Shown: one piece after another, positions 20,608 to 27,940 of the stretch
How the letters are laid out: each line of letters opens with the position of its first letter
Position numbering within the stretch: position 1 is the stretch's first letter
Origin: a virus
Taxonomy: Duplodnaviria > Heunggongvirae > Uroviricota > Caudoviricetes
Virus record (IMG/VR): IMGVR_UViG_2529292908_000011
DNA length: 34,254 nt
Reading direction: 5' to 3' (one strand)
The notes under the pieces: model-generated
Seen by the model: the letters and a program-made list of their open reading frames with translations, nothing else
Databases searched by the model: none
Told to the model about the DNA's origin: nothing
Position numbers and translations under genes: made by a program

Positions 20608-20973
20608 TTACAGTCCGATGATGTCGTCCTCTCTGCCACTACCTCCGGACACCTCCGGCAGCGTCGGGTCCGGCATATCACTCGCCGCTTCACGAGCAGA
20701 CTTTTGTCGATGGCATTCGGTACAGAGCGTCCAGAGATTCGTCTCCTCATTACCACCACCGAACTGAAGTGCAATTCGGTGATCGAGTTCACTGTCACAG
20801 AGGTCAACCACACGACCACAGAGACGGCACTGCCCGGCGTCCCTGAGCCAGATATGACGCTTGAGGGAAACACGTGCACTGCCACTGACACGACGCTGTT
20901 CACCCTTCAGAATATTCACCCGTCGGGTATTCAGTGTTTTGATTCTGCTCTGGAGTGTACGAAGCTCAGCCAT
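20608..20973 (-). CDS. HNH endonuclease (packaging-associated)
   Basis: 121-aa ORF with CRLCGRVVDLCDSELDHRIALQFGGGNEETNLWTLCTECHRQK, an HNH motif with two CxxC pairs. Confidence 0.85.
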   Translation of the reverse strand: MAELRTLQSRIKTLNTRRVNILKGEQRRVSGSARVSLKRHIWLRDAGQCRLCGRVVDLCDSELDHRIALQFGGGNEETNLWTLCTECHRQKSAREAASDMPDPTLPEVSGGSGREDDIIGL

Positions 20974-21014: not shown

Positions 21015-21215
21015 ATGTCATCGAAAAACCGTACCCGCAGAACCACAACCCGCAATATCCGTTTCCCCAATCACATGATTGAACAGATCAACATCGCCCT
21101 TGAGCATAAAGGGTCCGGTAACTTTTCAGCGTGGGTTATTGAAGCCTGCAGGAGAAGGCTGGCAACAGATGCAACGCATCTGCGCCCGGCCAGCATGAAA
21201 AATAACGAGAAATGA
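21015..21215 (+). CDS. small DUF3950-like (YlcI-like) protein
   Basis: Internal ATG of ORF 20955..21215 giving 66 aa MSSKNRTRRTTTRNIRFPNHMIEQINIALEHKGSGNFSAWVIEACRRRL...; AAAGGA Shine-Dalgarno. Family assignment from memory only. Confidence 0.45.
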   Translation: MSSKNRTRRTTTRNIRFPNHMIEQINIALEHKGSGNFSAWVIEACRRRLATDATHLRPASMKNNEK

Positions 21216-21346
21216 ACGTTCGGTTACAGGAGCAGGTACCCACTGTCCTCCAACAATATTTCATCTTCATATCCGACGGAACAAGACTTACCCTGCCGGG
21301 ATGTACAGAATAACAACAGAGTGATAATTAATTTCTGATGAAATAA

Positions 21347-21688
21347 TCAGGGTGCAGAAGGACTAAAGATAAACGTTTTCTTCACGCCTTTACACGGCCT
21401 GTCCTTCTCAAATCGCCATTTTGCCATCGCCTTTACAACCTGCTCATCAAACAAATGGTGCGGCTCTGAACGGATAAACTCAATTCGGGTGACAGTACCA
21501 TCAGCACCAATATCAAACTTCACATCAACCCGTCCCTTTATATAATTTGCCGCTGCATAGGCCGGATATTGTGGTAATGCCTTAACCAACTGTCGGGGCA
21601 TATCTGTTTTATGTTGCGTACAGCCCATAACCAGAGAAGACAACAAAATAATTAACGGAAGGTTTCTTTTCATTTTCATTCCCGGCAC
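21347..21688 (-). CDS. TonB C-terminal-domain lipoprotein (moron)
   Basis: 113-aa ORF with lipoprotein-like signal MKMKRNLPLIILLSSLVMGC and ...YPAYAAANYIKGRVDVKFDIGADGTVTRIEFIRSEPHHLFDEQVVKAMAKWRF... resembling a TonB_C fold. Confidence 0.6.
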   Translation of the reverse strand: MPGMKMKRNLPLIILLSSLVMGCTQHKTDMPRQLVKALPQYPAYAAANYIKGRVDVKFDIGADGTVTRIEFIRSEPHHLFDEQVVKAMAKWRFEKDRPCKGVKKTFIFSPSAP

Positions 21689-21923
21689 AGATAAGAATAC
21701 GTCTTATTCTAACAATGCCACCCTGTCGGTCATCAATCCTCTGCTTAATGGCAACGACAATTATCCGACTTAAATCACAAATCAGACACATGACATAACA
21801 GAGCTTGCGAGGTAACACATCGTCCGGTTTCTTCCACCATCGCACCGGACCAGCGACCATGAGGGGACAACGCCGCGCTCCGTTAACGCGGTAACCAGAA
21901 CAGGTCGAAGTAATACTCGCACG

Positions 21924-27461: not shown

Positions 27462-27653
27462 ATGAGTACAGCCCTTTCTCCGATAGTTTCAGAATTCGAA
27501 ACTACCGAACAAGAAAACAGTTACAACGAATGGTTACGCGCTAAAGTGGCGTCAAGCCTTGCTGACCCTCGTCCCTCAATTCCACATGATGAGGTAATGG
27601 CTGAAATGGAGAATCTTATTGCTCAAATTGCTGTAACTAACAGGAGCGAGTAA
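27462..27653 (+). CDS. type II antitoxin (partner of the ParE-family toxin)
   Basis: 63-aa acidic ORF MSTALSPIVSEFETTEQENSYNEWLRAKV... whose stop overlaps the toxin ATG by 1 nt. Confidence 0.6.
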   Translation: MSTALSPIVSEFETTEQENSYNEWLRAKVASSLADPRPSIPHDEVMAEMENLIAQIAVTNRSE

Positions 27654-27940
27654 TGTTACCCATTTTGTGGCTACCATCTGCTCGCGATGATTTGCGTCAG
27701 ATCGTAGCCTATATTGCTAAGGAAAATATTCCTGCAGCACGCAGACTAAAAATACGGATTGAAACGTCTGTTTTAGCCCTCTCTGAGCATCCATATCTAT
27801 ATCCGCCAAGTGATCGAGTATCCGGTTTGCGGGAAATTGTGGTTCACCCTAATTATATCGTTTTGTACCGAGTAGCAGCTTCAAGCATTGAAATTGCAAA
27901 TATTGTGCATGCCCGCCGACAATTTCCCTTCCCTATCTGA
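27653..27940 (+). CDS. ParE/RelE-family type II toxin
   Basis: 95 aa MLPILWLPSARDDLRQIVAYIAKENIPAARRLKIRIETSVLALSEHPYLYPPSDRVSGLREIVVHPNYIVLYRV...IANIVHARRQ, typical ParE fold signature. Confidence 0.8.
   Translation: MLPILWLPSARDDLRQIVAYIAKENIPAARRLKIRIETSVLALSEHPYLYPPSDRVSGLREIVVHPNYIVLYRVAASSIEIANIVHARRQFPFPI

What the first reader, a model, noticed from the sequence alone, without database searches (positions are those of the whole stretch)
21015..21688. TonB C-terminal-domain lipoprotein and a small DUF3950-like gene where lysis genes would be expected
Between the HNH/packaging genes and hok there is no holin, endolysin or spanin. Instead there is a convergent pair: a 66-aa YlcI-like gene and a 113-aa lipoprotein whose body looks like a TonB C-terminal domain. 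A secreted TonB-C mimic is a plausible superinfection-exclusion factor against TonB-dependent phage or colicin uptake.
Basis: inference. Interest (0 to 1): 0.5.

Follow-up and report, generated by a model that had tools for sequence, protein, structure and literature searches.

The report
Prophage lipoprotein copying TonB's C-terminal domain
A decayed E. coli prophage carries an intact small gene for an outer-membrane lipoprotein that copies the receptor-docking end of the TonB protein; the gene is common and already annotated, but nobody appears to have tested what it does, and it probably interferes with TonB-dependent uptake.

Summary
Both ORFs are real. The 66-aa gene (21015-21215, +) is a YlcI/YnfO DUF3950 protein. 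The other gene (true start 21673, 108 aa, -) has a lipobox (LVMG|C18, Thr at +2). Its body is a complete TonB C-terminal domain: 40% identical and ungapped to E. coli TonB 153-230, and the model superposes on TonB bound to BtuB and FhuA at 1.0-1.1 A.

The framing "where lysis genes would be expected" is wrong. The lysis genes are missing because of a deletion, with its junction at 21889-21895, in a badly decayed lambdoid prophage. In intact relatives (JLK-2012, Stx1a phages, phage 21) the gene lies just downstream of holin-endolysin-spanin and upstream of the packaging genes.

The gene is present in 1616 of 5426 complete E. coli genomes, is annotated "TonB family protein", and is under purifying selection (dN/dS about 0.13). 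It belongs to a family of small TonB-CTD lipoproteins in Enterobacterales. Some members are phage-borne in this same slot; others are chromosomal.

A decoy that blocks TonB-dependent uptake is the best-supported mechanism. Periplasmic TonB fragments are reported to inhibit the TonB system, and Llp and Cor are precedents for phage lipoproteins that disable such transporters. This mechanism is inferred, not shown. I found no paper on the gene. ylcI is a separate module.

The parts
21347..21673 (-). CDS of the 108-aa TonB C-terminal-domain lipoprotein precursor (stop codon included).
   Evidence: ORF list. Start inferred from homologues and from the upstream alignment. Pfam TonB_C 1.4e-14. 100% identical to the protein of Lys8385Vzw and four Stx1a phages. 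dN/dS 0.13-0.16 against other alleles.
21620..21673 (-). Signal peptide (codons 1-17, MKRNLPLIILLSSLVMG) plus the lipid-modified Cys18 (21620-21622). Thr at +2 predicts sorting to the outer membrane.
   Evidence: The PROSITE-type lipobox pattern is matched here and in 33 of 40 family members, and none has Asp at +2. Processing itself is not shown.
21362..21598 (-). TonB C-terminal domain (residues 26-104, equivalent to E. coli TonB 153-231), including the PxYP motif and the beta3 strand that pairs with TonB boxes in TonB.
   Evidence: phmmer against PDB TonB chains, E=4e-16, ungapped. BLASTP 40% identity. AF2 pLDDT 96-98 over residues 31-100. Foldseek: 1u07_A, 2gsk_B and 2grx_C with TM 0.88-0.92 and rmsd 1.0-1.1 A.
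21706..21733 (-). Promoter-like site: -35 ATGACC, 16-nt spacer, extended -10 TGTTAGAAT. It lies about 30 nt upstream of the start codon.
   Evidence: Consensus scan (4 sites found against 1.7 expected, so weak on its own). The block ATTGT(T/C)AGAATAAGAC is conserved in the otherwise diverged phage-21-type upstream region. Function not shown.
21015..21215 (+). 66-aa YlcI/YnfO (DUF3950) gene, convergent with the TonB-like gene and divergent from HNH. It is an independent module of unknown function.
   Evidence: Pfam DUF3950 4.2e-20, NCBIfam YlcI_YnfO_N, phrog_949. It occurs with HNH but without the TonB gene in vB_EcoS phages.
21889..21895 (.). Deletion junction (CGGTAA microhomology). To its left is the late region, as in JLK-2012 and strain 2015C-3121. 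To its right is the start of a DUF968 gene downstream of hokD, as in strain 23CRST047. This junction explains the missing Q and lysis genes.
   Evidence: BLAST break points and three-way alignment. Annotated intact relatives. No place in 5426 complete E. coli genomes spans it. The junction 30-mer is absent from IMG/VR, the GTDB representative genomes and the JGI metagenomes.
20608..20973 (-). HNH endonuclease of the HK97-type packaging module (context; the next gene downstream in the late direction).
   Evidence: Pfam HNH 3.7e-08. Annotated as HNH endonuclease in relatives.

Best explanation
[quoted passage not shown] There it displays a complete TonB C-terminal domain on a short tether of about 7 residues.

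It lacks TonB's membrane anchor and its proline-rich spacer, so it cannot transmit energy. The most likely action is as a decoy. It would bind the TonB boxes of TonB-dependent transporters (FhuA, BtuB, FepA, Cir and others) or of imported group B colicins by the same beta-strand pairing that TonB uses. Alternatively it could pair with TonB's own C-terminal domain. Either way it would uncouple these receptors from TonB-ExbBD. That would make the lysogen or infected cell less permeable to TonB-dependent phages (T1/phi80 type), group B colicins and microcins.

It is a moron in the slot between the lysis cassette and the packaging genes. It is co-oriented with the late operon, so it should be transcribed late. 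It may also have its own extended -10 promoter for expression in lysogens.

Shown: the ORF, the homology, the fold, the lipobox, the genomic slot, purifying selection and prevalence. Inferred: lipid modification, outer-membrane location, TonB-box binding, any phenotype, and expression timing.
For: - Domain identity: Pfam and TIGRFAM hits above their cutoffs. 40% identity, ungapped, to TonB 153-230.
- Structure: a confident AF2 model (pLDDT 96-98 across the domain). It superposes on TonB in its transporter-bound state, 2gsk_B with BtuB and 2grx_C with FhuA, at rmsd 1.1 and 1.0 A and TM 0.91-0.92.
- Conserved residues: from the alignments and my own numbering of the TonB residues, the YP motif (Y36, P37), F53, G59, F75, W86 and F103 align with TonB Y163, P164, F180, G186, F202, W213 and F230. 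P34 and P37 of the PxYP motif are invariant and Y36 nearly so across 33 family members.
- Lipobox: present in 33 of 40 members, never with Asp at +2, with a constrained tether of 15-24 residues from Cys to PxYP.
- Selection: dN/dS 0.13-0.16.
- Conserved slot: lysis genes, then TonB_C, then terminase, in E. coli phages with two different packaging systems, a Klebsiella phage, and Rahnella and Sodalis prophages.
- Prevalence: found in 1616 of 5426 complete E. coli genomes.
- Literature: periplasmic TonB fragments 33-239, 103-239 and 122-239 are reported to inhibit TonB-system activity and iron import (statements citing Howard et al. 2001 in PMC9841981 and bioRxiv 10.1101/2020.01.05.895219). Small phage outer-membrane lipoproteins that disable a TonB-dependent transporter from the periplasmic side are established for Llp, and the same paper proposes this for Cor (PMC9586334).
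Against: - No experiment or paper on this gene was found.
- It matches no PADLOC defence model.
- Homologous small TonB-CTD lipoproteins are chromosomal and syntenic within Raoultella/Klebsiella, Pantoea/Erwinia, Serratia and Pseudescherichia, with no phage context. The ancestral role may therefore be a housekeeping one and not exclusion.
- A general block of TonB coupling would cost the lysogen iron and B12 uptake.
- The inhibitory TonB fragments in the cited work were longer and overexpressed. Whether a bare C-terminal domain on a 7-residue outer-membrane tether can reach a TonB box in the right orientation was not tested.
- From the same alignment and my own numbering, TonB residues implicated in TonB-box contacts are changed (Q160 to L, R166 to Y, R158 to K).
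- Many truncated or frameshifted copies exist in databases.
- The promoter call is weak.
Confidence: 0.5

Rival explanations
1. It is an envelope-tethering or lysis-modulating lipoprotein. The TonB C-terminal domain would bind peptidoglycan or another periplasmic partner, and the outer-membrane-anchored protein would stabilise or time envelope disruption. This would fit its position next to the spanin genes and its PHROG label.
For: It lies immediately after holin-endolysin-spanin in every phage context and is co-oriented with the late operon. PHROG phrog_1267, which it matches over its full length (E=7.7e-43), is labelled 'Rz-like spanin' in the category lysis. Peptidoglycan affinity of the TonB C-terminus has been proposed in the literature; this is from my own knowledge and was not checked here.
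Against: Relatives already have complete spanin pairs (phage 21 i-spanin and o-spanin, JLK-2012 Rz). The protein is a globular TonB fold. It is not a short proline-rich o-spanin, and it lacks the C-terminal transmembrane segment of a unimolecular spanin. Curators of lysis genes annotated the phage 21 copy as 'TonB C-terminal domain protein', not as a lysis gene. Chromosomal homologues have no lysis neighbours. The PHROG label is probably inherited from position.
Confidence: 0.1
2. It is a lysogenic-conversion factor for host fitness or virulence, not for exclusion. Like its neighbour Bor/Iss, it would be an outer-membrane lipoprotein that alters serum resistance, adhesion or iron-uptake regulation. 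One example would be damping TonB-dependent signalling or transport under some conditions.
For: It is in the same moron slot as bor or iss and lies next to them in phage 21 and in ST131 strain JJ1887. It has a possible own promoter. Conserved chromosomal homologues suggest a cellular role. It is very common in pathogenic and commensal E. coli.
Against: There is no evidence of expression in lysogens. There is no sequence relation to Bor/Iss: only TonB_C and TonB_2 appear in Pfam. The fold points specifically to TonB-box partners, so any such role would probably still work through TonB-dependent transporters and overlaps with the main explanation.
Confidence: 0.2
3. It is self-protection of the phage's own progeny or self-superinfection exclusion, as with T5 Llp. 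Under this reading the carrier phages use a TonB-dependent transporter as receptor, and the lipoprotein inactivates that receptor.
For: Llp is an established precedent, and the same paper proposes that Cor works the same way. Orientation with the late operon would suit a late-acting function.
Against: The same TonB-like alleles occur in phages whose J C-terminal (receptor-binding) regions differ widely. JLK-2012 is 97% identical to the window's J tip, Lys8385Vzw 67%, PhiR47_2 65% and Perceval 43%. No phi80, N15, HK022 or T1-type J appeared among the 40 listed hits of 243 matching records. A TonB-CTD decoy would be generic, not receptor-specific.
Confidence: 0.1
4. It is a functionless passenger: a captured host gene fragment carried along in the moron slot.
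For: Many truncated or frameshifted copies exist. Here it sits in a prophage that is otherwise decaying.
Against: dN/dS is 0.13-0.16 between alleles whose synonymous sites are nearly saturated. The lipobox and the core residues are conserved across genera. The slot is the same in four genera. The gene is in 30% of complete E. coli genomes.
Confidence: 0.05

Closest known systems
TonB (E. coli TonB C-terminal domain, residues ~150-239; PDB 1U07, 2GSK, 2GRX)
   Same: Same domain by sequence (40% identity, ungapped) and by fold (rmsd 1.0-1.1 A). The YP motif, the conserved aromatic residues and the beta3 strand that pairs with TonB boxes are all present.
   Different: It has no N-terminal membrane anchor for ExbB/ExbD and no proline-rich spacer. 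Instead it has a lipoprotein signal peptide and a ~7-residue tether, so it is anchored to the opposite membrane and cannot transduce energy. It scores far below the TonB equivalog cutoffs (74 bits against 315).
Engineered periplasmic TonB fragments (Howard, Herrmann, Stratilo and Braun 2001, as cited in PMC9841981 and bioRxiv 10.1101/2020.01.05.895219)
   Same: A TonB C-terminal region delivered to the periplasm without its energy-coupling N-terminus. These fragments are reported to inhibit TonB-system activity and iron import.
   Different: The fragments were soluble, longer (from residue 33, 103 or 122) and overexpressed. This protein is natural, shorter (equivalent to 153-233), lipid-anchored to the outer membrane and diverged in sequence.
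T5 Llp and the Cor family (phi80, T1, N15, HK022): phage outer-membrane lipoproteins that inactivate FhuA
   Same: All are small phage-encoded lipoproteins facing the periplasm from the outer membrane. Llp disables a TonB-dependent transporter from the inside and gives superinfection exclusion, and the paper proposes the same for Cor (PMC9586334).
   Different: The fold is unrelated: only TonB_C-type families are found in Pfam and only TonB or TolA-type folds in the PDB. Llp binds the FhuA plug and does not touch the TonB box. The protein here would be expected to act on TonB boxes in general and so be receptor-unspecific.
Bor / Iss lipoprotein morons of lambdoid phages
   Same: Same genomic slot between the spanin genes and cos/terminase. 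Both are small outer-membrane lipoproteins, and they are adjacent in phage 21 and in JJ1887.
   Different: No sequence or fold relation. bor and iss are transcribed against the late operon, whereas this gene is co-oriented with it.
Chromosomal small TonB-CTD lipoproteins of Enterobacterales ('TonB family protein' of Raoultella, Klebsiella, Pantoea, Erwinia, Pseudescherichia; secreted non-lipoprotein form in Serratia)
   Same: They have the same architecture and family motifs (PxYPxYA, SEPxHLFD, KWRFE) at 33-50% identity. This family is probably the direct source of the phage gene.
   Different: They are not in prophages and are syntenic within a genus. Their function is likewise unknown.

Membership tests
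TonB C-terminal domain (Pfam PF03544 / TIGR01352) | Profile match above the curated cutoff | tested here: met
   PF03544: 54.7 bits against a cutoff of 24.6. TIGR01352: 54.6 bits against 27.1.
TonB C-terminal domain (Pfam PF03544 / TIGR01352) | Alpha/beta fold superposable on solved TonB C-terminal domains, including beta3 | tested here: met
   AF2 pLDDT 96-98 over the domain. 1u07_A, 2gsk_B and 2grx_C with target-normalised TM 0.88-0.92 and rmsd 1.0-1.1 A.
TonB C-terminal domain (Pfam PF03544 / TIGR01352) | Conserved YP motif and core aromatic and glycine residues (TonB Y163, P164, F180, G186, F202, W213, F230) | tested here: met
   These align with Y36, P37, F53, G59, F75, W86 and F103 (TonB numbering applied by me). 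P34, P37, G59 and W86 are invariant and Y36 and F75 nearly so in the family.
TonB energy transducer (TonB-ExbB-ExbD system component) | N-terminal uncleaved transmembrane anchor that couples to ExbB/ExbD | tested here: not met
   The N-terminus is a 17-residue signal peptide ending in a lipobox. TonB homology starts only at residue 24-26.
TonB energy transducer (TonB-ExbB-ExbD system component) | Proline-rich spacer long enough to span the periplasm | tested here: not met
   Only 7 residues (TQHKTDM) lie between Cys18 and the first residue aligned to TonB. The whole protein is 108 aa.
TonB energy transducer (TonB-ExbB-ExbD system component) | Score above the NCBIfam TonB equivalog cutoffs | tested here: not met
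   Best score 74.2 bits against a cutoff of 315 (NF008084).
Bacterial outer-membrane lipoprotein | Lipobox with Cys at position 15-35 after a basic n-region and a hydrophobic h-region | tested here: met
   LVMGC with Cys18 and K2/R3. The pattern is matched in 33 of 40 family members.
Bacterial outer-membrane lipoprotein | No Lol-avoidance signal (Asp at +2) | tested here: met
   +2 is Thr here. Across the family it is S, T, A or V and never D.
Bacterial outer-membrane lipoprotein | Actual diacylglyceryl modification, signal peptidase II cleavage and outer-membrane localisation | not testable with these tools
   Needs globomycin sensitivity, palmitate labelling and membrane fractionation.
Llp / Cor superinfection-exclusion lipoproteins | Homology to Llp or Cor | tested here: not met
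   Pfam returns only TonB_C and TonB_2. The PDB fold search returns only TonB and TolA-type domains. No direct pairwise comparison with Llp or Cor sequences was run.
Llp / Cor superinfection-exclusion lipoproteins | Binds a TonB-dependent transporter from the periplasm and blocks phage infection | not testable with these tools
   Needs binding and plating assays.
Spanins (label of PHROG 1267: 'Rz-like spanin') | o-spanin: a short proline-rich lipoprotein encoded within or next to an i-spanin gene. u-spanin: a lipoprotein with a C-terminal transmembrane segment. | tested here: not met
   The mature part is a globular TonB fold with no C-terminal hydrophobic segment. Relatives carry separate Rz/Rz1 pairs. 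Only the PHROG label itself points this way.
YlcI/YnfO (DUF3950), for the 66-aa gene | Profile match above the curated cutoff | tested here: met
   PF13132: 71.8 bits against 25. NF041551: 35.3 bits against 30.
Known anti-phage defence systems (PADLOC-DB) | Match to any defence-system protein model | tested here: not met
   No family matched for either protein at E<=0.01.

The most novel reading that the evidence does not exclude
Enterobacterales and their lambdoid phages share an uncharacterised family of outer-membrane-anchored TonB C-terminal-domain paralogues. These would act as natural dominant-negative decoys for TonB boxes. Phages have repeatedly placed one in the moron slot after the lysis genes. 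About 30% of E. coli strains would then carry a broad-spectrum shield against TonB-dependent phages, group B colicins, microcins and siderophore-antibiotic conjugates. This would be a third mechanism of transporter-directed exclusion, distinct from Llp and Cor.
Probability: 0.35. Interest if true: 0.7.

Novelty: new variant of a known kind. Interest (0 to 1): 0.45.

Why it matters
TonB-dependent transporters are entry gates for phages (T1, phi80, H8), colicins, microcins, albomycin and clinical siderophore-cephalosporin conjugates. A prophage gene found in about 30% of complete E. coli genomes, including phage 21, Stx1a phages and an ST131 strain, could damp TonB coupling. If it does, it would affect phage-therapy host range, bacteriocin competition in the gut and possibly susceptibility to Trojan-horse antibiotics. 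It would also add a generic, TonB-box-directed mechanism to the receptor-specific exclusion lipoproteins already known. If it does nothing of the kind, this remains an ordinary, already annotated moron of unknown function in a decayed prophage.

Tried and rejected
1. First AF2 run with a 16-sequence, near-identical alignment gave pLDDT 58 and was unusable. It was replaced by a 33-sequence alignment.

2. Colicin association. In Serratia a secreted homologue lies next to the immunity gene of a colicin Ia-like pore former whose N-terminus carries a TonB-box-like DSMTV. This looked like strong guilt by association. In other Serratia genomes the same flank borders a SIR2 gene or something else. The neighbour is therefore a variable island, and I do not count it as evidence.

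3. Fur regulation. The sequence GATAAGAATACGTCTTATT over the putative -10/+1 matches the 19-bp Fur consensus at only 13 of 19 positions (my own reading). The inverted repeat is absent from the phage-21-type allele. Rejected.

4. YlcI as a ribbon-helix-helix protein. The pattern looks Arc-like by eye. Left as unproven.

5. Looking for the deletion junction elsewhere, to show that it is real and not an assembly artefact. It is absent from 5426 complete E. coli genomes, IMG/VR, the GTDB representatives and the JGI metagenomes. The question stays unresolved.

6. BFVD viral structure search gave no significant match.

7. Literature searches for a phage-encoded TonB, a TonB decoy or mimic, or a 'tonB-like membrane protein' found nothing on this gene. 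Howard et al. 2001 could not be opened, so it is cited second-hand.

8. A link to the carrier's own receptor. The J C-termini differ among carriers, so there is no link.

9. The alignment-based viral scan failed with the broad alignment. With the narrower one it returned only near-identical E. coli prophage copies.
Full report
**1. What is in the sequence**

The region holds two convergent ORFs.

The + strand ORF 21015-21215 (66 aa) is a YlcI/YnfO protein. It matches Pfam DUF3950 at E=4.2e-20, NCBIfam NF041551 and phrog_949.

The - strand ORF was listed as 113 aa from a GTG at 21688. All homologues begin MKR.... In the diverged phage-21-type allele the upstream ATG is ATA, while the AGGA-type ribosome-binding site and the ATG at 21673 are kept. 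The gene is therefore 21347-21673, 108 aa.

It matches Pfam TonB_C (54.7 bits against a cutoff of 24.6) and TIGR01352. It matches solved TonB C-terminal domains at E about 4e-16. It is 40% identical to E. coli TonB 153-230 with no gap.

The N-terminus MKRNLPLIILLSSLVMG|CT satisfies the PROSITE-type lipobox rule, with Thr at +2.

**2. Structure**

With a shallow alignment AlphaFold gave pLDDT 58. With 33 family members it gave 85.9 overall and 96-98 across residues 31-100.

Foldseek against the PDB puts TonB C-terminal domains first:

| PDB chain | Description | Target-normalised TM | rmsd (A) |
|---|---|---|---|
| 1u07_A | E. coli TonB C-terminal domain | 0.88 | 1.1 |
| 2gsk_B | TonB bound to BtuB | 0.91 | 1.1 |
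| 2grx_C | TonB bound to FhuA | 0.92 | 1.0 |

TolA domain III follows far behind.

From the alignments, with TonB numbering applied by me, the YP motif and the core residues F180, G186, F202, W213 and F230 are conserved. The beta3 strand is present. Q160, R166 and R158 are replaced by L, Y and K.

**3. Why no lysis genes lie between HNH and hok**

The window is a lambdoid prophage near potB.

To the left of about 21894 it is 95-99% identical to the late region of phage JLK-2012, Stx1a-converting phages and strain 2015C-3121. In those, holin, endolysin and Rz lie a short distance upstream of the TonB-like gene.

To the right of about 21889 it is 99.8% identical to a prophage early region of strain 23CRST047. 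There hokD is followed by a 92-aa ORF, then DUF968, RusA, a Q-type antiterminator, tRNAs and so on.

The two homologies overlap in CGGTAA. Only about 11 codons of DUF968 remain.

No place in 5426 complete E. coli genomes spans the junction. The 30-mer across it is absent from IMG/VR, the GTDB representative genomes and the JGI metagenomes. A tblastn panel of holin, endolysin, spanin, bor, KilA-N, Q, RusA and DUF968 proteins from the relatives finds nothing in the window.

The prophage is decayed elsewhere as well:
- a 2.66-kb deletion removes most of the tape-measure gene and part of gene T at 10617/10618;
- an internal deletion affects J at about 4751-4862;
- the large terminase has a -1 frameshift in an A-run;
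- IS1- and IS5-type transposase ORFs are present.

So the pair does not replace the lysis genes. The lysis genes were deleted, or conceivably lost in assembly.

**4. The two genes are separate modules**

DUF3950 plus HNH occurs without the TonB-like gene in three vB_EcoS phages.

The TonB-like gene occurs without DUF3950 in several settings:
- in front of a lambda-type Nu1 terminase in phage 21 and ST131 strain JJ1887;
- in a Rahnella prophage;
- in a Sodalis prophage.

I found nothing that assigns a function to YlcI. There is no PDB relative and no alignment to Arc.

**5. The family**

The nucleotide sequence is found in 1616 of 5426 complete E. coli genomes, almost always on the chromosome and annotated 'TonB family protein'. 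414 carry this allele at 95% identity or more. About 1200 carry the phage-21-type allele at about 74.5% nucleotide and 72% amino-acid identity.

The curated phage 21 genome calls it 'TonB C-terminal domain protein' and places it after bor and before cos. The genome announcement does not discuss it.

Between alleles dN/dS is 0.13-0.16, with dS up to 1.4.

An exhaustive HMMER search found 177 proteins at E<=1e-10. These include several stand-alone proteins of 104-133 aa that have lipoboxes. A profile search names Klebsiella, Raoultella, Pantoea, Erwinia, Serratia, Rahnella and others.

The contexts fall into two classes:

(a) Prophage copies. The order is always lysis genes, then TonB_C, then terminase, co-oriented with the late genes. 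This holds in E. coli, Klebsiella phage ST13-OXA48phi12.4, Rahnella and Sodalis.

(b) Chromosomal copies that are syntenic within Raoultella/Klebsiella, Pantoea/Erwinia, Serratia and Pseudescherichia, with no phage genes nearby.

The Serratia clade has an ordinary signal peptide instead of a lipobox.

Family-specific motifs (SEPxHLFD, KWRFE) separate all of these proteins from true TonB. The phage gene was therefore probably taken from this lipoprotein family and not from tonB itself.

**6. Mechanism**

The protein cannot be a TonB. It has no membrane anchor, no proline-rich spacer, and it scores far below the TonB equivalog cutoffs.

What remains is the module that docks on TonB boxes by beta-strand addition, hung from the inner face of the outer membrane on a short and length-constrained tether.

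Two papers state that periplasmic TonB fragments (33-239, 103-239, 122-239) inhibit the TonB system and iron import. Both cite Howard et al. 2001, which I could not open. From memory, that paper also reported loss of phi80 and colicin M sensitivity. Phage T5 Llp, and by that paper's proposal the Cor proteins too, show that small phage outer-membrane lipoproteins can disable a TonB-dependent transporter from the periplasm.

I therefore take a TonB-box decoy, or a TonB C-terminal-domain trap, as the most likely mechanism (about 0.5). Resistance to TonB-dependent phages, group B colicins and microcins would be the benefit.

Expression is inferred, not shown. Co-orientation with the late operon implies late transcription. 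An extended -10-like element (TGTTAGAAT, 21706-21714) is conserved between diverged alleles, which hints at expression in lysogens.

Points against this mechanism:
- the chromosomal homologues;
- the expected cost to iron uptake;
- the changed contact residues;
- the untested tether geometry;
- no PADLOC match;
- no literature.

**7. Rivals**

A lysis or envelope role is suggested only by position and by the PHROG label 'Rz-like spanin'. The protein meets none of the spanin criteria, and relatives have their own spanins.

A Bor-like host-fitness role is possible and overlaps with the main explanation.

Self-exclusion tied to the phage's own receptor is unlikely, because carriers have unrelated J tips.

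A dead passenger is contradicted by the selection and conservation data.

The colicin neighbour seen in one Serratia locus turned out to be a variable island.

**8. Verdict**

The structural reading (lipoprotein plus TonB-C) is confirmed. The 'instead of lysis genes' reading is wrong. The exclusion function is plausible but untested.

The gene is common and already annotated by domain. The open question is the function of a whole family. As a candidate TonB-box-directed counterpart of Llp and Cor it is a new variant of a known kind, and it can be tested with simple plating and colicin assays.

Noticed in passing
window 8070-9206 (-): A full-length OmpC-type porin gene (378 aa) sits inside the tail gene cluster, between the M-like and L-like tail genes. 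The same arrangement is annotated 'porin OmpC' in related prophages.
   Followed up: no
window 10617-10618 and about 4751-4862: Two further clean deletions relative to intact relatives. About 2.66 kb is missing, removing most of the tape-measure gene and part of gene T. About 2.3 kb is missing from inside gpJ. The prophage cannot make tails.
   Followed up: partly
window about 19483-19490 (- strand gene 18097-19757): The large terminase is split into 101-aa and 452-aa ORFs by a -1 frameshift in an A8-to-A7 run, compared with two intact relatives. This could be real decay or a homopolymer sequencing error.
   Followed up: partly
window 28458-29156 (+) and 33263-34254 (+): There is an IS1-type InsAB-like ORF. 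There is also an IS5-type transposase split into two overlapping ORFs and running off the window end. Both are identified from my reading of the translations. They add to the picture of a decaying prophage.
   Followed up: no
window 27462-27940 (+): A 63-aa plus 95-aa gene pair next to the repressor-like gene looks like a ParD/RelB-ParE/RelE-type toxin-antitoxin module. This is a reading of the translations only.
   Followed up: no
PHROG phrog_1267 (database label): The PHROG family that this TonB-CTD lipoprotein matches over its full length is labelled 'Rz-like spanin' in the category lysis. The fold and architecture do not fit a spanin. The label probably arose from position next to lysis genes and could propagate misannotation.
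   Followed up: partly
L012 6001-8510 (Serratia); L017 1840-5300: A secreted, non-lipoprotein TonB-CTD homologue borders a variable island. In one genome the island holds a colicin Ia-like pore former (N-terminal DSMTV, TonB-box-like) with its immunity gene. In another it holds a 786-aa SIR2-domain protein.
   Followed up: partly
L110 2196-3278 (-) (Pantoea MAG): A 360-aa glycine-rich ORF starts MSGFGDGTGWSSERG, which resembles the TolB box of E-type colicins. It lies about 1.7 kb from the chromosomal TonB-CTD lipoprotein gene, with an integrase-like fragment in between.
   Followed up: no
L111 6242-6568 (+) (Sodalis prophage): A second small lipoprotein gene (108 aa...LAVSGC...) lies between the TonB-CTD lipoprotein and the terminase. 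The slot can therefore hold several lipoprotein morons.
   Followed up: no
window 13384-15884 (-): The portal gene appears as two ORFs (379 and 454 aa). The same split is annotated as 'frameshifted' or as two portal CDSs in intact relatives, including the inducible phage JLK-2012. It may therefore be a normal feature of this phage type and not decay.
   Followed up: no
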